In this document: in pieces, positions 4,027 through 52,300 of the stretch
Layout: each line of letters starts with the position of its first letter
Numbering within the stretch: the stretch's first letter is position 1
NCBI GenBank assembly: GCA_947629715.1
Contig: CANRET010000003.1
Location: 21,193-85,192, forward strand
DNA: 64,000 nucleotides
Direction: 5' to 3'
Source: an uncultured Akkermansia sp.
GTDB taxonomy: Bacteria > Verrucomicrobiota > Verrucomicrobiia > Verrucomicrobiales > Akkermansiaceae
Program-made: the position numbers and the translations under genes
The notes under the pieces: generated by a model
Database searches by the model: none
Told to the model about the DNA's origin: nothing
What the model saw: only the letters and a program-made list of their open reading frames with translations

Positions 4027-4032
4027 GTGGAT

Positions 4033-5184
4033 ATGTGCAAGGGGCAGCCAAATGAAGGGGAAGCGACCTCTTTCTCCGCACCGCCGGAGGTGGAGGAGCC
4101 TGCCTACCTGTCCCGGCAAATCATCACATGCCTGGGCAACAAGCGCGCGTTGCTTGCTCCCATTTTGAAGACTGTCGAATATGTCAAGGAGCAATTGGGG
4201 AGGGATAAAATCAGCTGCTTGGATCTTTTTTCCGGCTCCGGCATTGTGTCGCGCGCGTTCAAGGCTTACGCAACGGACCTGTTCAGCAACGATTTGGAGT
4301 CTTATGCGCGTGTCATCAACGAATGCTATTTAGCGAATCCGTCGGATGTGGAGAGCAGTCGCATGCACGCTTTGCACAAGGAGCTGGAGAAACGTGTGGA
4401 AGAGGAGTTGAGTCCCGGTTTTATCACGCGTCTGTACGCTCCTCAGCATGATGACGAGATACAGCCCGGGGAACGCGTCTTTTACACGCGCCGCAACGCC
4501 ATGTATCTGGATACGGCGCGGAGGCTTATTGATGAGATTGTGCCGAGGCGCATGAAGCCTTTTTTTGTTGCTCCGTTACTCTATGAGGCGTCGGTGCACA
4601 CCAACACGTCCGGCGTGTTCAAGGGCTTCTACAAAAATAAGCGAGGGATAGGTCAATTTGGCGGAACGGGACGCAATGCGCTGGGGAGAATCATGGCAGA
4701 TATCAAGCTTCATCTGCCGGTGTTTTCGCGCTTTGAAACTCGGAATCACATCTACCGCCAAGATGCCCGGGAACTGCATACTCACCTGCCGATGCTTGAC
4801 TTTGCTTATTTGGATCCGCCGTACAATCAGCATCCCTACGGATCCAATTACTTTATGTTGAATTTGCTCACGGATTACTATGAGCCCCGGGAGATTTCGG
4901 CGGTGTCGGGCATCCCATACGATTGGAATCGCTCGGTGTTCAACAAGGCGCCCCTTGCGCGCGCGGCGATTCTTGAGACCATCGCCAATTGCCCTGCCAG
5001 GTTCATCTTGCTTTCCTACAATTCGGAGGGATTTGTGTCGCGGGAGGAACTGTGCGATTTCATGCAGGACCTGGGGGAGTTGTCTGTCATGGAAACATCC
5101 TACACCACCTTTCGCGCGTCGCGCAACCTGAGCAACCGCCCTCTGCATGTACGCGAGCGTTTCTTTTTACTGAAACGTCAATAA
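4033..5184 (+). CDS. N6-adenine DNA methyltransferase (D12 class; M.NlaIII/M.HpyI-like architecture), orphan
   Basis: LGNKRALL, DLFSGSGIVS (motif I), YLDPPYN (motif IV), LSYNSEG; no endonuclease ORF adjacent. Confidence 0.9.
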   Translation: MCKGQPNEGEATSFSAPPEVEEPAYLSRQIITCLGNKRALLAPILKTVEYVKEQLGRDKISCLDLFSGSGIVSRAFKAYATDLFSNDLESYARVINECYLANPSDVESSRMHALHKELEKRVEEELSPGFITRLYAPQHDDEIQPGERVFYTRRNAMYLDTARRLIDEIVPRRMKPFFVAPLLYEASVHTNTSGVFKGFYKNKRGIGQFGGTGRNALGRIMADIKLHLPVFSRFETRNHIYRQDARELHTHLPMLDFAYLDPPYNQHPYGSNYFMLNLLTDYYEPREISAVSGIPYDWNRSVFNKAPLARAAILETIANCPARFILLSYNSEGFVSREELCDFMQDLGELSVMETSYTTFRASRNLSNRPLHVRERFFLLKRQ

Positions 5185-19927: not shown

Positions 19928-21874
19928 TCAGGCTCGCGATGACTTGCTTCTCCTTTCGCAATCCTGCAACAGGCTCTTCCAGAGCGAATCGATGCCGGCG
20001 GCAACGCTCTCCTTGGCTGAGTCTTGATCTGTGCCGGGTAAACCGTGTGCGAAGAGATAAAACTTGATTTTCGGTTCCGTGCCGCTGGGACGCACTGCAA
20101 AGCTGCGACCGTCCGCCAAGTCCAGGATGAGCAGATTCTCGGCCGGCACAGGGTCTCCCTCGGCATCTTTCATGATGCCGAGGGAAAAGTCTCGCACATT
20201 CACCACCGGCGAGCCATCCATTTCAGTAGGGGGCGCGGAGATGAAGCTCTCGGTAAGCGCGGCGATCTTCGCAGCTCCGTCGGCGCCTTCCATGACGAGG
20301 CTCTTCCCAACTTCCAGATGGTAGCCGAATTGAGCGTACAGAGAGTTGAGGAGCTCGAGCAGACCGATGCTGCGCGATGACAGGTAGGCGTTCAACTCCG
20401 CAAGGCAGAGGGCCGCAGCATTGGCGTCCTTGTCGCGTACGAAATCCTGAGCCAGATAGCCGTAGCTTTCCTCGCCGCCGAAAACGAAGTACTTGCTGTG
20501 CTGCAGACGGAGCGAGCGAGAAGTCGCTTCATCCAAATTGCGGTAGTCGGCGCGGAGATGTTCCGGGATGCGATGCTCGTACTTCCCGAGCTTGGCGGCT
20601 ATGTACTTGAAGCCCGTGAGGACATTGACCGTGGCGATGCCGAAACTCGCTGCGATGGCATCCTGCAGAGGGCTCGTCACATACGTCTTCACCATCACGG
20701 CGTGCGCTTCATTTTCAGGTGTCACAATGCCCAGTTCGCGCATGCTCATGCAGCGGTACCACGCCAGCAAGCAGCCCGTCTGATTCCCGGTGAGCAATTG
20801 CATTTTCCCAGTCGCCTTGTCACGAACTGCGATGCCCATGCGATCGCTGTCCGGATCCGTGGCAATCACCAGATCCGCCTGCTCGGCGTCAGCTTGGGCA
20901 ATCGCCATATCCAGCGCAGGCGCGTTTTCGGGGTTGGGACTCTGAACTGTCGGGAAACGTCCGTCCTGCACATCCTGTGCGGCTACCGTACTCACCCGAC
21001 AACCGATTTCACGCAACAACGGCACAATGCAACGCTTGCCCGTGCCGTGCAGATTGGTGTAAACAACCTTTGCAGAACTCCTCTGAAAGACCTCCGGTCG
21101 CAAAATGATGCTCTTGAGCTTTGCCATGAAGCGTGCGTCCATATCGCTGCCCAGCTCGAACAGTTTCCCGCGTTCGCTTTCCGGCAAGGGTTCGTACGTA
21201 TCGCTCTCCAGTGCATTGACCTCGGCAATCACTCCTTCATCGTGCGGTGGCACGAGTTGGGCGCCGTCGTTGAAATAAGCCTTAAACCCATTGTCGTGGG
21301 CAGGATTGTGGGAGGCGGTAATGACCACGCCCGTGTCGGCGTTGAGTTCGCGGATGGCGAAGGAAACCTCCGGCGTGGAGCAGGGACCGTCAAAGAGCGC
21401 GCAATCACAGCCCAAATCCGTGGCGATTTTTGCACACTGCTCTGCAAAGGAGCGAGAGAAATGGCGAGTATCATGTCCCACCACAATGAGCGGTTTCCTC
21501 TCGCCGACGAACTTGCGCACGTACGTGATAAGACCTCGCATCGCGCGCCCCACGTTAAAAAAGTTCATGCAAGCCGTGCCGATGCAGGGGAACTCCGGAC
21601 GTCCGTTTTCGCCGCCTTTCCCTTGTTCTGCTCGGGTGACCGCAGCACCGATGGTGCGACCTCGAAGTCCGCCGGTCCCGAATGCAAGCGACTTGAAAAA
21701 TCTGTTGTTGAGTTCCGCCCAATTATTGGCATCGATGAGCTCGCCCACGGCTGCGGGAGCAACAGGATCCTTCGTCCCTTTCAGCAGGTGTTTTATATTC
21801 CGCAGTGATGATTCCTGAAGGCATCCGTTTGCCACTGCTTGCTCCATGACTTTGATTTCTTGTTCACTCAACAT
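19928..21874 (-). CDS. pgm: Phosphoglucomutase/phosphomannomutase
   Basis: FGTGGLRG, ITASHNP (phosphoserine), DPDSDR, GFKYI, GGEESYG, RPSGTEPKIKFY. Confidence 0.93.
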   Translation of the reverse strand: MLSEQEIKVMEQAVANGCLQESSLRNIKHLLKGTKDPVAPAAVGELIDANNWAELNNRFFKSLAFGTGGLRGRTIGAAVTRAEQGKGGENGRPEFPCIGTACMNFFNVGRAMRGLITYVRKFVGERKPLIVVGHDTRHFSRSFAEQCAKIATDLGCDCALFDGPCSTPEVSFAIRELNADTGVVITASHNPAHDNGFKAYFNDGAQLVPPHDEGVIAEVNALESDTYEPLPESERGKLFELGSDMDARFMAKLKSIILRPEVFQRSSAKVVYTNLHGTGKRCIVPLLREIGCRVSTVAAQDVQDGRFPTVQSPNPENAPALDMAIAQADAEQADLVIATDPDSDRMGIAVRDKATGKMQLLTGNQTGCLLAWYRCMSMRELGIVTPENEAHAVMVKTYVTSPLQDAIAASFGIATVNVLTGFKYIAAKLGKYEHRIPEHLRADYRNLDEATSRSLRLQHSKYFVFGGEESYGYLAQDFVRDKDANAAALCLAELNAYLSSRSIGLLELLNSLYAQFGYHLEVGKSLVMEGADGAAKIAALTESFISAPPTEMDGSPVVNVRDFSLGIMKDAEGDPVPAENLLILDLADGRSFAVRPSGTEPKIKFYLFAHGLPGTDQDSAKESVAAGIDSLWKSLLQDCERRSKSSRA

Positions 21875-21884
21875 GACGCCACGC

Positions 21885-21913
21885 ATTGTAGCACTTTTCC
21901 CCTCTCTTAGCAA
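21885..21913 (-). promoter_or_regulatory. Sigma70 promoter of pgm (near-leaderless)
   Basis: TTGCTA-N17-TACAAT with extended TG, 10 nt before ATG 21874. Confidence 0.6.
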
Positions 21914-22046
21914 GCGAGACAGCATGGATGCATTCCCCATGTATGCGTTGCTCGCGATTGACGACATGCGTTCGGAAGCCAAGTCAAGCCCAACCTGAGC
22001 AGTGTCCCTTTCTTTCTCTCGTCGCTTTTGTTATCCCCGGGGTGTG

Positions 22047-22215
22047 CGTATTTGGAATACGTATGTCAAGCCCATATTTGATAATTTTTCTTTTTCTTTC
22101 CAATGACTTATCGGAAGCAGGGATCGCATTACGCACAAAAAATTCCCTTGAAACGGTTTCATATATTCATCATTATCAATATCTTAGATATGCTCAGGTA
22201 CGTATTCCAAATACG
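22047..22215. promoter_or_regulatory. Candidate invertible promoter (inverton): 17-bp perfect inverted repeats flanking 135 bp
   Basis: CGTATTTGGAATACGTA (22047-22063) is the exact reverse complement of TACGTATTCCAAATACG (22199-22215). The interior is AT-rich with promoter elements and lies upstream of an autotransporter. Confidence 0.7.
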
Positions 22216-22292
22216 TACCCTTTCCGCAGAGCAGTGGTGACGAAGATTTCGATTCGCCGTTGCTTTCTCACAAACTAATTTCACCACATACT

Positions 22293-25200
22293 ATGAAACT
22301 ACATTTACCGATTGCGTTGTTCACGGCTCTTATGGCGGTGATGACTGCGTTACCTTCTTTCGCCGATGTCACTGTGAAGAAGGGAGAAGAATCCGTGGAA
22401 CTGACAGAATACGAGGAATCCGAAAGAGGCGCCAAGGGGTATTCTTATGATTTCGGAACGGTGACGGACGGTGTCACCATCACCATCACCGGGGAGGGGG
22501 AATACAGCGAATTCAAGCTGGGGGAAGGGACAACTCAACTCGGGGGCAATACGGTTATCGATGTCACGGGGAAATGCTACTGGGAAGGGAAGGGGAGCTC
22601 CTATGCTGTTCTTGCCTATAACGGTGGCAGCGCCACCATCGATGTGCATGACGGAGGCCTGTTTGTCAACAACGGATATATAGCTTGGCACAATGATGGC
22701 AAGTCCCAAACTACAGCGACCATCAACATCTATGATGGGGGGAGACTTCAAGATGGCAAAAACGGATCTTATGCCCACAACAAGGGCGATCAGGTGACGA
22801 TCAATGTGAAGGAAGGGGGGACTCTGAGCAGTAGCTGTACCTATGCCAACAACGGAGAAGTTACAATTAATGTCGAGGGCGGTAGTGTTGAGACAGGCCG
22901 TAGTGACACTAGATATGCCTATAGTTCCGATGGGCATATTATCGTCAACGTGAGCGGTGTGGGTGAGACTGAAGGAGTTGTTGATTTTCGTGATATAGGA
23001 AGTATGGCGTGCAATGGAAAGGCGACGATAGCCGTAAACGATGGCGGTGTTCTCAAGATAGGGGAAGCCACCATGGGGCGTAATTCCGGGAGTTATGTTT
23101 CCCTCACGGTAAACAAGGGAGGAAGAGTAGAAATAAGTCATGAGTCTCCGCGCAATGGATGTCGATTTACGTACGAGACGGGTTCAACTGCTGACATAAT
23201 CATCAATGGGGGCGAATTTATTGGACAAAATGTAAACTACGGCGATGCTGGTCATAAGACCAGAGCAGGTTCTTCGCACATTATCGTCAAAAATGGAGGA
23301 TTCTATCGTGAGGCGGGAGATGATGCCAGTTTCGTCAATGTAACCATCGATGTGCAAGGCAGTGACAGTGTCTTTGAGTTGCATGATTCAGGTTACAGCA
23401 ATAGCGCCTATGCAAATTTTACAAATTGCGAGATCAATGTCGATGGCGGTACGTTCAAGTTCACGAGTGAGGACGCGGATGAGCATCCGAGGGCAGAAAT
23501 TAAGGATTCAAATCGGTTTGTGCTGAGCAATGGAGGAACCATCGAGATTGGTCAAGCGTTTGTTGATGCTTCCTATAGCTACGATTGGATGATTAACCCG
23601 AATCTGACGATCAAGGGCGGGAACTTGGTCAATGCACAAAAAATGTCAGGGGATTGCACGATCAACATCGACAGTGGTTACACCGGCGTCAATAGTCTCG
23701 GAGGACTGCTTCCTGAGCATATCACAGAATTCAAGGTGAACGGTGCGAACACGTGGTTTGATGAGATTGGCGATGGCACGATCACCCTGCAGGGAGGCGA
23801 CAGCATCACGCTGGGAGCGTCGAGTGTGTGGGTAAAAGGATCTGAAGAAGGAGCAGATTCGAGGCACGCTGCTTTTCAATTCGTGACTCCCGGCAAAGGA
23901 AAGGTGAATGTTGACGGTCAATTTGTGCTTAATCTTGATGGAAGAGCAATATCCTTCACAGAAGACGGCGAATTCACGATCGAGGTCTTCCTCACGAACG
24001 GCAATTTAGCGGGACAGGGAGAGGACTGGGCGAAGGAGCATTTTGCGGTCGGAACAGGTTGGGGACTGACCGTGAGTAGATATAATGCAGAGAAGGGTAC
24101 ACTTACTTTGACCGGCCAGTTCAATGTGTGGGATGCTGTGCAGGATGGTGATTCCGATCATACTGGTCATGCATCTGCCAATGCCAGTGATCTTGTCCAT
24201 TACGACAAAGTAATCATCGATGAGGAAACCGCGCTCACAGCTGATGGGAATGCAACCCTCAAGCAGCTTCAGGGGGACGGGGAGGATTCTGAACTCACCA
24301 TTACCAATAACACTCCCGAGAGTCCAAAGGAGCTCACTCTGCACAACGAGGACACAGCTTCGGTGAATGGCTCCGGAGATACGCGCTTTGCCGGTGACAT
24401 CACGGTCAATGAGGGAGTGGATCTGAAGAAAACGGGCGATGCGGAATTTGCGATAGAAGGCGACCTGAGCACCAGAGGTGGCGTCACCGTGGATGAAGGG
24501 ACGCTCGCATTCGGGAAGAAGAGCAAGAGCTCTATCGATGGCGGGCTTTCCATTAGCGATGGCGCTGAGCTGCAGGTGGATGGAAGCCTCACGCTCAAGG
24601 GTGAAAGTGATCTTTCCGAAAGCGAAGGACAGCTCTCCGGGGAAGGCGATATCACCGTAGGCAATGGCGGCAGCCTGACGCTGGGAGGAAATACCCTTGC
24701 AGGTGATCATGACCTGAGCTTCGATGTCGAGAAAGGAGGCACGCTCAGTTTCAAGGGAGAAAACTCCAACTTCTCCGGCAACATCACGGGCGAGGGTACG
24801 GTCTCCACGGAGGGAACGATCAAACTCACGGAAGATGGTTCGCTCACAGGAGACGACAGCTCGGGCAAGTTCCTGGCAAGTGGTTCGGAACGCACCTTCG
24901 GGGGGGACAATGGAGAAGCTGACATCGGTGCGACGGATGGCGCTAAGGTCACTCTCCAAGCCGGTTCGACTTTCAAGTCTCTGGATGCCGAGGTGGGCGG
25001 TGACAAGGGCGGCAACACCTACACCTTTACCGGCAAAGATGCTGAGGGGAGCACGACCAGACATTTCTCCGGCGACATCGTGCTGCGCAGCGGCAACGAG
25101 TACGACATGGAGCTGGATCTGAGCAACCCGGCGCTTTGGGAGGGGAGTGGCCAGCATAAGGAAACTCTCATACTGGATACCCAGAGGAACATCATTATCG

Positions 25201-26723
25201 AAGATGGAGCCACCATCGTCTTGAACAGCATCGATAATTTGGTTGCGAAGCAAGGAGATCTTACGGGAGTTGTGCTGATGCAGGGCAAAGGCATTTTCCA
25301 TGAGAGCTATTTACGGTACAAAGGCGAAGGGGATGAGCATGAGAAAACCTTGGGGCCCGTGAATGGAGTCAACGTCAAGTTGGGAGGCATCTTGGATCTG
25401 CTCTACGAAAGAGCCGAGTTGCAGATTGTAGAAGCAGACGGTGGAGCGAGTGCGGCGAACGAACTCATCGCACTCGCTGAAGTTGAGCCCAGGGATGGTG
25501 CGACCTACGATACCATCGTCAATTTCTATCACCGCACACAGAGCAAGTTTGCTCCATACGCAACAAGCGCCAACTCCATTGCCGGTTCCAACCTGCTGTG
25601 GTTTGAGGCCGACCAGAAGGGCGTCACTATGGACGAAAGTGTGCTAGCCGTGATGAGCAGTTTGCAGCAGATGGCGGATGCAGGCGACGCGGCAGGCGTG
25701 CGCAAGGCGCTCGCGGCCGTGGCGGGCAGCACGCTGACCTCGCTCTCCGCCGCTCAGAGCGCGGCCCTGCGCAACCAGGAGAGCCGTGTGCGCGACCACG
25801 CTCTGCAGGCCGCACGTTTGCGCTGCCAGGGCAACGACGAGACAACGCAGCAGCAGCGTCCCTGCAAGACCACCCACGTTTGGGTGGAAGGCACGAGCTT
25901 CTTCTCTGAGCAGCACAGCCGTGGCGACGAGAGCGGCTATCGCCTCAACAGCTGGGGAGGGGCCGTGGGTCTCGATGCGCAGGTGGACGCGCACTGGAGC
26001 GTTGGACTGAGCCTAGCCGCCAACTACGGCGATCTCGAAGCGCGCGCCGCCGACTACGCCAAGGGCGACCTGGACAGCTTCTACGTGAGCGCATGGAGTC
26101 AGGCGAAGAACGCTCGTTGGGGCAACACGCTGCTCTTCACCCTGGGCACGAATGAGGCCAATCTCAGGCGCACGGTAAACTATGGAAGCGGCAGCTACAC
26201 GGCCACGAGCAGCACGAGCGGCAGCAGTCTGGGAGCGATGTGGGAACTCACCTACGACTTCTATCCGGTGAAGGAGAACAGGAGCAACGTCATCCAGCCG
26301 CTCTTCAACGTGATCGTGCAGCACACGAGCATGGACGGCTTCAGTGAGAAGAATGCGGGAGGCGTGGGTCTTACCACGGAGAAGCAGACGCGCGACACGA
26401 TGACGCTGGCGCTGGGCTTGCGTTGGCTGGCGGCGATTGAGAGCGGCAAGGCAGCCAATCGCACGGTGACGACCGAGCTGCACGCGAATGTGGCGCAGGA
26501 CATGGGCGACCGCCGGAGTGAGGCGAACGTGGCGCTGCTGGCCAACCCGAACTACACGCAGAGCGTGTACGGGGCGCGCGCAGGCAGCACGGCGTTCCAG
26601 TTCGGAGCGGGAGTGAACGTGCCGGTGACGGCGAACTCGCAGCTTTATGTGAACGCGGGCGGCGAACTGCGCAGCCACGCGAACGCATGGAACGCCGCAC
26701 TGGGCGTTCGGATGGGCTTCTGA
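22293..26723 (+). CDS. Type Va autotransporter (beta-helical passenger plus beta-barrel)
   Basis: MKLHLPIALF signal peptide; repeated xxIxVxxGG rungs; one PATR-like repeat (LKKTGDAEF...VDEGTL); C-terminal barrel ending GVRMGF. Confidence 0.93.
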   Translation: MKLHLPIALFTALMAVMTALPSFADVTVKKGEESVELTEYEESERGAKGYSYDFGTVTDGVTITITGEGEYSEFKLGEGTTQLGGNTVIDVTGKCYWEGKGSSYAVLAYNGGSATIDVHDGGLFVNNGYIAWHNDGKSQTTATINIYDGGRLQDGKNGSYAHNKGDQVTINVKEGGTLSSSCTYANNGEVTINVEGGSVETGRSDTRYAYSSDGHIIVNVSGVGETEGVVDFRDIGSMACNGKATIAVNDGGVLKIGEATMGRNSGSYVSLTVNKGGRVEISHESPRNGCRFTYETGSTADIIINGGEFIGQNVNYGDAGHKTRAGSSHIIVKNGGFYREAGDDASFVNVTIDVQGSDSVFELHDSGYSNSAYANFTNCEINVDGGTFKFTSEDADEHPRAEIKDSNRFVLSNGGTIEIGQAFVDASYSYDWMINPNLTIKGGNLVNAQKMSGDCTINIDSGYTGVNSLGGLLPEHITEFKVNGANTWFDEIGDGTITLQGGDSITLGASSVWVKGSEEGADSRHAAFQFVTPGKGKVNVDGQFVLNLDGRAISFTEDGEFTIEVFLTNGNLAGQGEDWAKEHFAVGTGWGLTVSRYNAEKGTLTLTGQFNVWDAVQDGDSDHTGHASANASDLVHYDKVIIDEETALTADGNATLKQLQGDGEDSELTITNNTPESPKELTLHNEDTASVNGSGDTRFAGDITVNEGVDLKKTGDAEFAIEGDLSTRGGVTVDEGTLAFGKKSKSSIDGGLSISDGAELQVDGSLTLKGESDLSESEGQLSGEGDITVGNGGSLTLGGNTLAGDHDLSFDVEKGGTLSFKGENSNFSGNITGEGTVSTEGTIKLTEDGSLTGDDSSGKFLASGSERTFGGDNGEADIGATDGAKVTLQAGSTFKSLDAEVGGDKGGNTYTFTGKDAEGSTTRHFSGDIVLRSGNEYDMELDLSNPALWEGSGQHKETLILDTQRNIIIEDGATIVLNSIDNLVAKQGDLTGVVLMQGKGIFHESYLRYKGEGDEHEKTLGPVNGVNVKLGGILDLLYERAELQIVEADGGASAANELIALAEVEPRDGATYDTIVNFYHRTQSKFAPYATSANSIAGSNLLWFEADQKGVTMDESVLAVMSSLQQMADAGDAAGVRKALAAVAGSTLTSLSAAQSAALRNQESRVRDHALQAARLRCQGNDETTQQQRPCKTTHVWVEGTSFFSEQHSRGDESGYRLNSWGGAVGLDAQVDAHWSVGLSLAANYGDLEARAADYAKGDLDSFYVSAWSQAKNARWGNTLLFTLGTNEANLRRTVNYGSGSYTATSSTSGSSLGAMWELTYDFYPVKENRSNVIQPLFNVIVQHTSMDGFSEKNAGGVGLTTEKQTRDTMTLALGLRWLAAIESGKAANRTVTTELHANVAQDMGDRRSEANVALLANPNYTQSVYGARAGSTAFQFGAGVNVPVTANSQLYVNAGGELRSHANAWNAALGVRMGF

Positions 26724-26858: not shown

Positions 26859-26887
26859 TTGACAGCTCCACGCGTCTGTGGCAAAAT
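26859..26887 (+). promoter_or_regulatory. Promoter of tRNA-Arg
   Basis: TTGACA-N17-CAAAAT with extended TG. Confidence 0.6.
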
Positions 26888-52271: not shown

Positions 52272-52300
52272 TTGACGTGACGTGAAATGTCGTGTATATT
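52272..52300 (+). promoter_or_regulatory. Promoter of the tRNA-Thr-tuf operon
   Basis: TTGACG-N17-TATATT. Confidence 0.7.

What the first reader, a model, noticed from the sequence alone, without database searches (positions are those of the whole stretch)
22047..22221. The recombination site itself is the promoter spacer: inversion would assemble a split -35/-10 promoter
Seen: a consensus TTGACA on the - strand (22069-22064) abuts the left repeat, which is exactly 17 bp, and is followed outside by non-consensus CACACC. Outside the right repeat lies TACCCT (22216-22221, TAnnnT), now preceded by non-consensus CTCAGG. After inversion the junction reads TTGACA-tacgtattccaaatacg-TACCCT pointing at the autotransporter. 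Inference: the window shows the OFF or low state, and flipping builds the promoter from two halves rather than re-aiming an intact one. Caveat: an internal TTGAAA-N17-CATTAT (22148-22176) points at the gene now, so it could be a two-level switch.
Basis: partly seen in the sequence, partly recalled or inferred. Interest (0 to 1): 0.85.

Follow-up and report, generated by a model that had tools for sequence, protein, structure and literature searches.

The report
Invertible switch that splits a promoter
Upstream of a giant surface-protein gene in a rabbit-gut Akkermansia, a 135-bp flippable DNA segment carries only the -35 half of a promoter, the -10 half sits fixed beside the gene, and the 17-bp recombination site is the spacer between them, so flipping builds or dismantles the promoter; this family of switches is known, but I found no held paper that describes this split layout.

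Summary
The element belongs to a multi-copy inverton family in rabbit-gut Akkermansia, a dialect of the published A. muciniphila invertons. I compared 23 family members. TTGACA, preceded by an A-rich UP-like tract, always abuts one repeat on the inside. The flank facing a secreted-protein gene always carries TAnnnT 17 nt (three cases 18) from that -35 once the segment is flipped. At the fixed position this holds for 18/20 gene flanks and 0/17 other flanks, p=1e-8. One member shifts both hexamers by 1 nt and keeps the spacer at 17. Five members are assembled in the ON state (for example TTGACA-N17-TATCAT). One sibling locus occurs in both orientations in public data. The window is OFF, as are all other assemblies of this locus. 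The likely invertase is a tyrosine recombinase encoded elsewhere, next to sibling invertons. No transcript data exist, and flipping of this particular locus was not seen. Verdict: interpretation supported by comparison; a new variant of a known kind; moderately high interest.

The parts
22047..22063 (+). Left inverted repeat (IRL), CGTATTTGGAATACGTA. The 15-bp core 22047-22061 has two 6-bp arms, CGTATT and AATACG, around an asymmetric centre TGG.
   Evidence: the same core is found at about 19 Akkermansia loci
22199..22215 (+). Right inverted repeat (IRR), TACGTATTCCAAATACG. After inversion these 17 nt become the spacer between the -35 and the -10.
22064..22198 (.). Invertible segment, 135 bp, non-coding.
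   Evidence: Bounded by the repeats. Homologous segments of 135-140 bp occur in 16 siblings. The sibling L012 is seen in both orientations.
22064..22069 (-). -35 hexamer TTGACA, now pointing away from the autotransporter gene towards the phosphoglucomutase-like gene, with CACACC where a -10 would be.
   Evidence: GGCTTGACA is conserved at this position in the family
22073..22100 (-). A/T-rich tract upstream of the -35 (GAAAGAAAAAGAAAAATTATCAAATATG on the minus strand), a candidate UP element.
   Evidence: Conserved block AAggatAAAAa.ttTcaAAt in the alignment; the function is inferred.
22174..22186 (+). TATCAATATCTTA, an exact match to the IHF consensus WATCARNNNNTTR, 14 nt from the IRR core. 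Candidate DNA-bending site for synapsis of a very short loop.
   Evidence: 13 of 17 family members have at most 1 mismatch at the same aligned position; binding is not tested.
22148..22176 (+). Internal promoter-like TTGAAA-N17-CATTAT pointing at the gene in the present state. Probably weak or not functional.
   Evidence: it reads TCGAAA-N18 in conspecific contigs L048-L050; a weak positional recurrence is seen in about 8 of 16 siblings.
22216..22221 (+). Fixed -10 hexamer TACCCT (TAnnnT) outside the invertible segment.
   Evidence: the gene-side flank is TAnnnT in 18/20 siblings against 0/17 on the other flank; the strain variant 22218 C>T gives TATCCT.
22228..22228 (+). Predicted transcription start of the assembled promoter (A, 7 nt after the -10); the 5' UTR would be about 65 nt.
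   Evidence: Inference from sigma-70 geometry; not measured.
22293..26723 (+). Regulated gene: a 1476-aa autotransporter with signal peptide MKLHLPIALFTALMAVMTALPSFA and a C-terminal beta-barrel.
   Evidence: PF03797 at residues 1196-1455, E=1.9e-37; siblings control paralogous MKLHLP proteins.
19928..21874 (-). Neighbour on the non-target side: a phospho-sugar mutase. It has its own promoter-like site at 21913-21885 and is probably not controlled by the switch.
   Evidence: Pfam PGM_PMM I-IV; promoter scan; homologues are 646-648 aa.

Best explanation
This is a phase-variation switch (inverton) of the Akkermansia family in which the promoter is split by the recombination site. The invertible 135-bp segment carries an UP-like A-tract and a consensus -35 (TTGACA) flush against one inverted repeat. 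The -10 (TACCCT) is fixed outside the other repeat, next to the autotransporter gene. A tyrosine recombinase encoded elsewhere probably inverts the segment by exchange within the 15-bp core CGTATT-TGG-AATACG, helped by an IHF-like bend at 22174-22186. Inversion puts TTGACA exactly 17 nt from TACCCT, with the repeat itself as the spacer. That creates a sigma-70-type promoter with a start near 22228 and turns the autotransporter ON. In the orientation seen in the window the -35 faces CACACC and the -10 faces CTCAGG, so neither direction has a promoter and the gene is OFF. Shown: the anatomy, its conservation, and inversion of a sibling locus. Inferred: the identity of the recombinase, IHF involvement, promoter activity and the start site.
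For: (1) The anatomy is verified at the stated coordinates.
(2) It is a family. The same core occurs at about 19 loci in rabbit-gut Akkermansia MAGs, several per genome, and contigs often break at it.
(3) GGCTTGACA abuts one repeat on the inside in all members, preceded by a conserved A-rich block.
(4) The flank towards a signal-peptide gene is TAnnnT immediately after the core in 18/20 members and shifted by 1 nt in 2. The other flank scores 0/17. Fisher p=1.2e-8, against a background TAnnnT frequency of 0.0068. Ten different TAnnnT hexamers are involved, including at unrelated target genes.
(5) Spacing is preserved. L055 has its -35 one nt closer to the core and its -10 one nt further out, which keeps 17.
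(6) Five members are assembled ON: TAGACA-N17-TATAAT (L002), TTGACA-N17-TATCAT (L004), TTGACG-N17-TAAACT (L012), TTGACA-N17-TATATT (L062, in the CGGATT dialect) and TTGACA-N17-TAAACT (L071).
(7) In every simulated ON state the junction promoter is the best sigma-70 match, 9-11 of 12.
(8) This genome uses such promoters: TTGACG-N17-TATATT before tRNA-Thr/tuf and TTGACA-N17-CAAAAT before tRNA-Arg. A relative without an inverton has a contiguous TTGACT-N16-TATCCT before its MKLHLP autotransporter.
(9) Inversion is real in the family. A 2131-nt contig in run X4 has both L012 flanks collinear and positions 2706-2829 on the opposite strand.
(10) A tyrosine recombinase (PF00589) lies 7-25 nt from sibling invertons. 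The central trinucleotides of the two repeats always match within an inverton even when they differ between invertons: TGG, TAC, TAG, AAG.
Against: No transcript or start-site data could be obtained, because no RNA run holds this organism. This locus was never seen flipped. Three ENA contigs of the same species and the contigs of 16 metagenome runs all have the window's orientation, although contigs hide minority states. TACCCT matches only 3 of 6 and is the weakest -10 in the family. The TA of TAnnnT also belongs to the extended palindrome. Many target genes are paralogues, so the 23 cases are not fully independent. A weak complete promoter-like signal recurs at a fixed position facing the gene in the OFF state in about half of the members. 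The recombinase is not in the window and its activity is untested.
Confidence: 0.75

Rival explanations
1. It is a conventional inverton, or a two-level switch. A complete promoter inside the segment (TTGAAA-N17-CATTAT, 22148-22176) drives the autotransporter in the present orientation, so the window is ON or low rather than OFF. The TTGACA/TACCCT junction would add a second level or be irrelevant.
For: The site scores 9 of 12. A weak TTGnnn-N17/18-CAtnAT recurs at the same relative position in about 8 of 16 siblings.
Against: In three conspecific contigs the -35 reads TCGAAA and the spacer is 18. The strongly conserved letters are ATCAr-N4-TTA, the IHF consensus, not the -10 positions, and no -35 is conserved above TTG. 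A transcript from this site would have to read through the 10-bp perfect hairpin formed by the repeat (I10). This reading does not explain why TAnnnT is on the gene flank in all members.
Confidence: 0.15
2. The conserved GGCTTGACA and the flank TA...T are determinants for the recombinase or an accessory or directionality protein, not promoter elements. Transcription of the gene would be controlled some other way, for example by a terminator or read-through.
For: TA is part of the extended palindrome TACGTATT...AATACGTA. Asymmetric accessory sites are common in tyrosine-recombinase systems such as fimS and lambda att (established knowledge).
Against: The non-target flank lacks TA in 13 of 17 members, yet those elements are intact and at least one inverts, so the outer TA is not needed for recombination. 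The match to both sigma-70 hexamers at the optimal 17-nt distance would be coincidence, as would the compensating shift in L055 and the better -10 hexamers at unrelated target genes. No terminator-like structure was found between the switch and the ATG.
Confidence: 0.07
3. This copy is a locked or fossil switch. It has the split-promoter anatomy but no longer inverts, leaving the autotransporter permanently silent or expressed by other means.
For: Only one orientation is seen in 3 contigs and 16 runs. Degenerate solo sites exist elsewhere in the family (L058-L061). Some co-occurring strain variants change the centre of IRR (22207-22208 CC>AT) with no listed change in IRL.
Against: The two repeats in the window are perfect 17-mers with matching centres, and all internal conserved blocks are intact. 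Consensus contigs cannot show a minority orientation. The gene is a full-length open frame of 1476 aa.
Confidence: 0.12

Closest known systems
Akkermansia muciniphila inverton family (IR motif CGGATT..AATCCG of Jiang et al. 2019; 'group 138' in PMC11892184; cps1 inverton in PMC13343947)
   Same: 17-bp inverted repeats about 155 bp apart, intergenic, many copies per genome, next to autotransporter, PEP-CTERM or capsule genes. Those papers report a shared internal 'Akkermansia promoter motif' and experimentally observed flipping.
   Different: The arms here are CGTATT/AATACG, one base different per arm, and the host is a rabbit-gut species. None of the held papers says that the -10 lies outside the element or that the repeat is the spacer. 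Jiang et al. could not be read, so prior description cannot be excluded.
E. coli fimS type-1 fimbriae switch (FimB/FimE tyrosine recombinases, IHF, Lrp)
   Same: A short invertible element upstream of a surface-structure gene. The recombinase is of the tyrosine type (inferred here), and there are IHF-type sites inside the element (established knowledge; motif).
   Different: fimS is 314 bp with 9-bp repeats and carries the whole fimA promoter inside. Here the element is 135 bp and the promoter is divided across the recombination site.
Bacteroides capsule and surface-protein invertible promoters (Mpi serine invertase, Tsr-type tyrosine invertases)
   Same: Many invertons per genome share repeat motifs, are served in trans by a few invertases, and control surface architecture in a gut symbiont (PMC11892184).
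   Different: The Bacteroides promoter motif (the TAnnTTTG type) lies wholly within the invertible DNA, and the repeats and recombinases differ.
Junction promoters of IS circles (IS911 pjunc, IS2, IS30, IS256; established knowledge)
   Same: A strong promoter exists only after recombination brings a -35 at one end next to a -10 at the other end, with the recombination joint as the spacer.
   Different: Those arise through transposase-made circles and serve transposition. Here reversible site-specific inversion serves phase variation of a host gene.
Phase variation through the promoter spacer by repeat slippage (Haemophilus hif TA repeats, Neisseria poly-C/G tracts; established knowledge)
   Same: The -35/-10 spacer is the variable part of the promoter.
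   Different: In those systems slipped-strand mispairing changes the spacer length. Here the whole -35 half is removed or delivered by recombination.

Membership tests
Akkermansia inverton family (Jiang 2019 motif / group 138) | Pair of about 17-bp inverted repeats, about 150-175 bp start to start, intergenic | tested here: met
   Perfect 17-bp repeats, 152 bp start to start, between two genes. The published example 2092093-2092109 / 2092267-2092283 has the same layout.
Akkermansia inverton family (Jiang 2019 motif / group 138) | Repeat motif CGGATT..AATCCG | tested here: inconclusive
   The arms here are CGTATT/AATACG, one substitution per arm. Hybrid dialects (CGAATTTAGAATCCG, CGGATTAAGAATCCG) with the same internal anatomy link the two.
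Akkermansia inverton family (Jiang 2019 motif / group 138) | Placed next to genes for surface proteins (autotransporter, PEP-CTERM, capsule) | tested here: met
   An autotransporter (PF03797) starts 77 nt downstream.
Akkermansia inverton family (Jiang 2019 motif / group 138) | Both orientations observed in sequencing data | tested here: inconclusive
   Not seen for this locus. Seen for the sibling L012 in run X4. Only contigs were available, not raw reads.
Sigma-70-type promoter (assembled state) | -35 close to TTGACA, spacer 17 +/- 1, -10 with A at position 2 and T at position 6 | tested here: met
   TTGACA-N17-TACCCT in the simulated flip. The same rule holds in all 23 family members.
Sigma-70-type promoter (assembled state) | Transcription start about 7 nt after the -10, dependent on both hexamers | not testable with these tools
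   No RNA data for this organism.
Tyrosine-recombinase inversion system (fimS-like) | A tyrosine recombinase that acts on the repeats | tested here: inconclusive
   None was found among the window ORFs tested. A PF00589 protein lies 7-25 nt from sibling invertons L001 and L055, and there are 1402 homologues. Catalysis was not tested.
Tyrosine-recombinase inversion system (fimS-like) | Core of two inverted arms around a short asymmetric overlap that must be identical in both partner sites | tested here: met
   The arms CGTATT/AATACG flank the centre TGG. The centres differ between invertons (TGG, TAC, TAG, AAG) but always match within a pair.
Tyrosine-recombinase inversion system (fimS-like) | Whole promoter carried inside the invertible element | tested here: not met
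   Only the -35 and the UP-like tract are inside; the -10 is outside.
Serine invertase systems (Hin/Gin/Mpi) | Serine recombinase gene nearby, a 2-bp crossover centre in an even-length site, a Fis-bound enhancer | tested here: not met
   No resolvase-type gene is among the neighbours tested. The site is symmetric about a single base with a 3-nt asymmetric centre. The associated recombinase is of the tyrosine type.
IHF-assisted recombination site | WATCARNNNNTTR motif at a fixed distance from the core | tested here: met
   TATCAATATCTTA at 22174-22186. 13 of 17 members have at most 1 mismatch at the aligned position. Binding and the presence of an IHF/HU gene in this genome were not tested.

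The most novel reading that the evidence does not exclude
The whole Akkermansia inverton family, probably including the experimentally studied invertons of human A. muciniphila, may work by promoter assembly rather than promoter re-aiming. On this reading the recombination core plus two bases is held at 17 bp because it doubles as the sigma-70 spacer. OFF is then a true null with no outward transcription into the neighbouring gene. The mobile half (UP tract, -35, IHF site) would be a portable cassette that can capture any gene carrying a bare TAnnnT next to a core site. That would explain unrelated targets (lipoproteins, an ankyrin operon), cassette swapping between orthologous genes (L012 against L031), and one inverton with reversed core polarity (L040).
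Probability: 0.6. Interest if true: 0.72.

Novelty: new variant of a known kind. Interest (0 to 1): 0.62.

Why it matters
Invertons are usually read as intact promoters that get turned around, and detection and annotation tools look for a promoter inside the element. Here half of the promoter lies outside. Motif searches restricted to the invertible DNA would therefore find only a '-35-like' motif. That fits the report that the Akkermansia motif did not behave as a genome-wide promoter motif (PMC11892184). The layout gives a clean prediction for any member: which flank is regulated, which state is ON, and where the transcript starts. It gives a mechanistic reason for the fixed repeat length. 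It also offers a compact natural template for leak-free recombinase switches. Akkermansia is being developed as a probiotic, so knowing which surface adhesins are ON or OFF from DNA reads alone has practical value.

Tried and rejected
- RNA evidence: no RNA run holds this organism. The listed RNA runs are host-labelled. The CGGATT-dialect locus L062 is not in any useful run.
- Flipped state at this locus: contigs of 16 metagenome runs and 3 ENA contigs show only the window's orientation, with no strand-change joints. The sibling L034 likewise showed only one orientation.
- Metagenome-collection scan for TTGAC-N3-core: 2 hits. The one inspected was a chance match inside a coding region; the other could not be read.
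- The exact autotransporter protein is not in the public gene index. Its homologues are few and divergent.
- Reaching A. muciniphila through the neighbouring mutase gene failed. The abundant homologue P0092 comes from a 64% G+C relative with no inverton there.
- Virus-collection scans for the CGGATT dialect gave one useful locus (L062). The rest were unrelated.
- Recombinase in the window: none among 26 ORFs screened by Pfam.
- Jiang et al. 2019 could not be opened. Literature searches for split, hybrid or reconstituted promoters in invertons found nothing relevant.
- A second rightward promoter TTGAAA-N17-TCAAAT just upstream of the -35 was rejected. Its -10 lacks the A at position 2, and the block reads better as an UP-like A-tract.

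Full report
OBSERVATION.
- IRL is 22047-22063 (CGTATTTGGAATACGTA) and IRR is 22199-22215 (its exact reverse complement). The pair extends to 20 nt with one mismatch (I1), and 135 bp lie between the arms.
- TGTCAA at 22064-22069 is TTGACA on the minus strand and is flush with IRL. Beyond IRL it faces CACACC.
- TACCCT at 22216-22221 is flush with IRR and currently has CTCAGG 17 nt upstream.
- Flipping 22064-22198 in silico gives ...aaaaattatcaaatatgggcTTGACA-tacgtattccaaatacg-TACCCTttccgcA....
- The internal TTGAAA-N17-CATTAT (22148-22176) is also there.
- The repeat is not chance: 0.05 matches were expected in the window.

CONTEXT.
- On the right is a 1476-aa autotransporter (22293-26723). It has the signal peptide MKLHLPIALFTALMAVMTALPSFA and a PF03797 beta-barrel at residues 1196-1455.
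- On the left, on the minus strand, is a phospho-sugar mutase (PGM_PMM domains I-IV). Its homologues are 646-648 aa, which puts its start at 21874. It has its own promoter-like site, TTGCTA-N17-TACAAT, at 21913-21885.
- No recombinase was found among 26 window ORFs screened.
- The window comes from an Akkermansia of the rabbit gut. The 17-mer hits MAGs named 'uncultured Akkermansia sp. ... Lapin', and the runs holding the locus are rabbit gut metagenomes.

A FAMILY, NOT A SINGLE ELEMENT.
- The exact 17-mer occurs at about 19 loci in seven Akkermansia MAGs, up to seven per genome. It usually occurs as inverted pairs 152-155 bp apart, and several contigs end at the repeat.
- The internal segments are homologous. 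From the target-gene side of the element inwards, the order is: core; about 14 nt; a block ATCAr-N4-TTA; A/T-rich DNA; a block TTGaAaa...AAggatAAAAa.ttTcaAAt; GGCTTGACA; TA; core.
- More members in other repeat 'dialects' were reached through proteins. L055 has CGAATTTAGAATCCG / CGGATTCTAAATACG. L062 has CGAATTCTTAATCCG / CGGATTAAGAATCCG. L071 has centre TAG.
- The last two link this family to the published A. muciniphila motif CGGATT..AATCCG.

THE TEST OF THE SPLIT-PROMOTER IDEA. If the repeat is a promoter spacer, three things should hold across the family.
1. The -35 must always touch a repeat on the inside. It does.
2. A -10 must sit immediately outside one repeat, on the side of a gene that reads away from the element.
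 - In 18 of 20 cases the six bases after the core on that side are TAnnnT: TACCCT, TATCCT, TATAAT, TATCAT, TAAACT, TACATT, TAGACT, TATGCT, TACACT or TATACT. In two cases the flank is cTATACT, which gives an 18-nt spacer.
 - On the opposite flank the count is 0 of 17. Fisher p = 1.2e-8, and the background frequency of TAnnnT is 0.0068.
 - Every TAnnnT flank is followed 27-104 nt later by an ORF with a signal peptide. Most are giant MKLHLP autotransporters, but unrelated lipoproteins (L003, L004, L040) and an ankyrin-repeat operon (L055) also occur.
 - The outer TA is missing on the non-target flank in 13 of 17 elements, so recombination does not require it.
3. The spacing should be constrained.
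 - It is 17 in 20 members and 18 in 3 (L003, L033, L001-type variants aside).
 - In L055 the -35 (TTGCAC) lies one base closer to the core and the -10 (g-TAAACT) one base further out, which restores 17.
In every simulated ON state the junction promoter is the best sigma-70 match in the region, 9-11 of 12.

ON STATES AND REAL INVERSION.
- Five members are assembled with the halves joined: L002 TAGACA-N17-TATAAT, L004 TTGACA-N17-TATCAT, L012 TTGACG-N17-TAAACT, L062 TTGACA-N17-TATATT and L071 TTGACA-N17-TAAACT.
- For L012 there is direct evidence of both states. A 2131-nt contig of run X4 aligns to both flanks on one strand and to 2706-2829 on the other, with the joints at the repeats.
- For the window's own locus only the present (OFF) orientation was found: three ENA contigs of the same species and contigs of 16 runs.
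- Contigs are consensus-level, so a minority ON population cannot be excluded.
- A co-occurring strain variant has 22218 C>T, which makes the -10 TATCCT.

DOES THIS GENOME USE SUCH PROMOTERS?
- Upstream of tRNA-Thr/tuf lies TTGACG-N17-TATATT (52272-52300).
- Upstream of tRNA-Arg lies TTGACA-N17-CAAAAT (26859-26887).
- In a high-G+C relative with no inverton, an MKLHLP autotransporter is preceded by a contiguous TTGACT-N16-TATCCT (L073). That is the same -10 that several invertons supply from outside.

THE INTERNAL PROMOTER CAVEAT.
- A weak TTGnnn-N17/18-CAtnAT recurs at a fixed position in about half of the members, facing the gene in the OFF state.
- In three conspecific contigs the window's TTGAAA is TCGAAA and a 1-nt insertion makes the spacer 18.
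- The bases that are truly conserved there are ATCA(A/G)-N4-TTA. This is the IHF consensus WATCARNNNNTTR, exact in the window (TATCAATATCTTA, 22174-22186). It has at most one mismatch in 13 of 17 members at the same aligned position.
- A bend-inducing site makes sense for synapsis of two sites only 152 bp apart, as in fimS or lambda att (established knowledge).
- I therefore rate a functional second promoter as possible but unlikely.

RECOMBINATION MACHINERY (inferred).
- A 335-aa tyrosine recombinase (PF00589, E=1.3e-13; distant Xer-like by NCBIfam) starts 25 nt from inverton L001.
- A 65%-identical homologue starts 7 nt from inverton L055. Another homologue has a degenerate solo site upstream. 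There are more than 1400 homologues, many on very short contigs.
- The core is two 6-bp arms around a 3-nt asymmetric centre.
- The centre differs among invertons (TGG, TAC, TAG, AAG) but is always the same in the two repeats of one inverton. This is expected if the centre lies in the strand-exchange overlap of a tyrosine recombinase.

COMPARISON WITH WHAT IS KNOWN.
- Akkermansia invertons are published. They have a shared repeat motif and a 'promoter motif' (Jiang et al. 2019, cited in PMC13343947 and PMC11892184).
- 32 such invertons in strain ATCC BAA-835 have 17-bp repeats, some beside autotransporter genes, and flipping has been measured in mice.
- The motif did not pass a genome-wide promoter test there. 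That is what one would expect if it is only the -35/UP half.
- No held paper states that the -10 is outside or that the repeat is the spacer. Jiang et al. itself could not be read, so prior description cannot be ruled out.
- Mechanistically the nearest analogue is the junction promoter of IS circles: -35 in one end, -10 in the other, joined by recombination.
- In function and enzymology it resembles fimS and the Bacteroides invertible promoters, from which it differs in that the promoter is not carried whole.

VERDICT.
- The window shows the OFF state.
- It is a new member of the Akkermansia inverton family, with an architecture best called a new variant of the invertible-promoter kind.

Noticed in passing
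L040:1076-1245: One sibling inverton has both cores with the central trinucleotide in the opposite polarity relative to inside and outside (CCA on the left, TGG on the right, with TTGACA next to the TGG copy). This would be expected after recombination between sites of different invertons, that is, large chromosomal inversions or cassette exchange.
   Followed up: partly
L012:2687-2930 versus L031:4000-4356: Orthologous autotransporter genes (90% identical over 675 nt) in two MAGs from the same rabbit sample carry different inverton cassettes and different 5' leaders. One is ON and the other OFF. This suggests that the regulatory cassette is exchanged between loci.
   Followed up: partly
L001:5241-5857: An inverton with an unusually long invertible segment (617 bp instead of about 135) lies directly beside the candidate tyrosine recombinase gene. 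Its -35 currently faces the recombinase, which has no -10-like hexamer (CAGAGC). What the extra about 480 bp encode was not examined.
   Followed up: no
L058:5900-6000 (also L059-L061): A homologous recombinase gene is preceded by a degenerate half-inverton. It has the conserved A-rich block, CCTGATA instead of GGCTTGACA, and a 14-nt decayed core, with no partner repeat. It looks like a fossil switch.
   Followed up: partly
window 21874-21913 (minus strand): The phospho-sugar mutase seems to start at the ATG at 21874, only about 3-4 nt after the start predicted from TTGCTA-N17(TG)-TACAAT. That would make it a leaderless or nearly leaderless mRNA. Public gene calls use a longer 670-aa frame that would swallow this promoter.
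   Followed up: partly
window 22207-22208 and 22218: Co-occurring strain variants in several rabbit runs change the centre of the right repeat (CC>AT), with no listed matching change in the left repeat. Separately, they change the -10 to TATCCT. A mismatch confined to the centre would lock the switch.
   Followed up: no
window 22197-22219: The right repeat with its neighbours is itself a perfect 10-bp hairpin with a 3-nt loop (GGTACGTATT cca AATACGTACC). Any transcript reading out of the segment in the OFF state would contain it.
   Followed up: no
window 4027-5184: There is a D12-class N6-adenine DNA methyltransferase gene (PF02086) with no obvious restriction partner among the ORFs screened.
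   Followed up: no
window 22001-24000: G+C drops to 0.478 over the switch and the 5' part of the autotransporter gene, against 0.53-0.60 around it. The passenger domain has no Pfam match. This is consistent with a fast-evolving or exchanged variable surface region.
   Followed up: no
L073:1400-1500 and L072:1380-1500: High-G+C Akkermansiaceae relatives have MKLHLP autotransporters with ordinary contiguous promoters (TTGACT-N16-TATCCT; TTGCGC-N18-TATAAT) and no inverton. The switch therefore appears to be an add-on in the gut Akkermansia lineage.
   Followed up: partly
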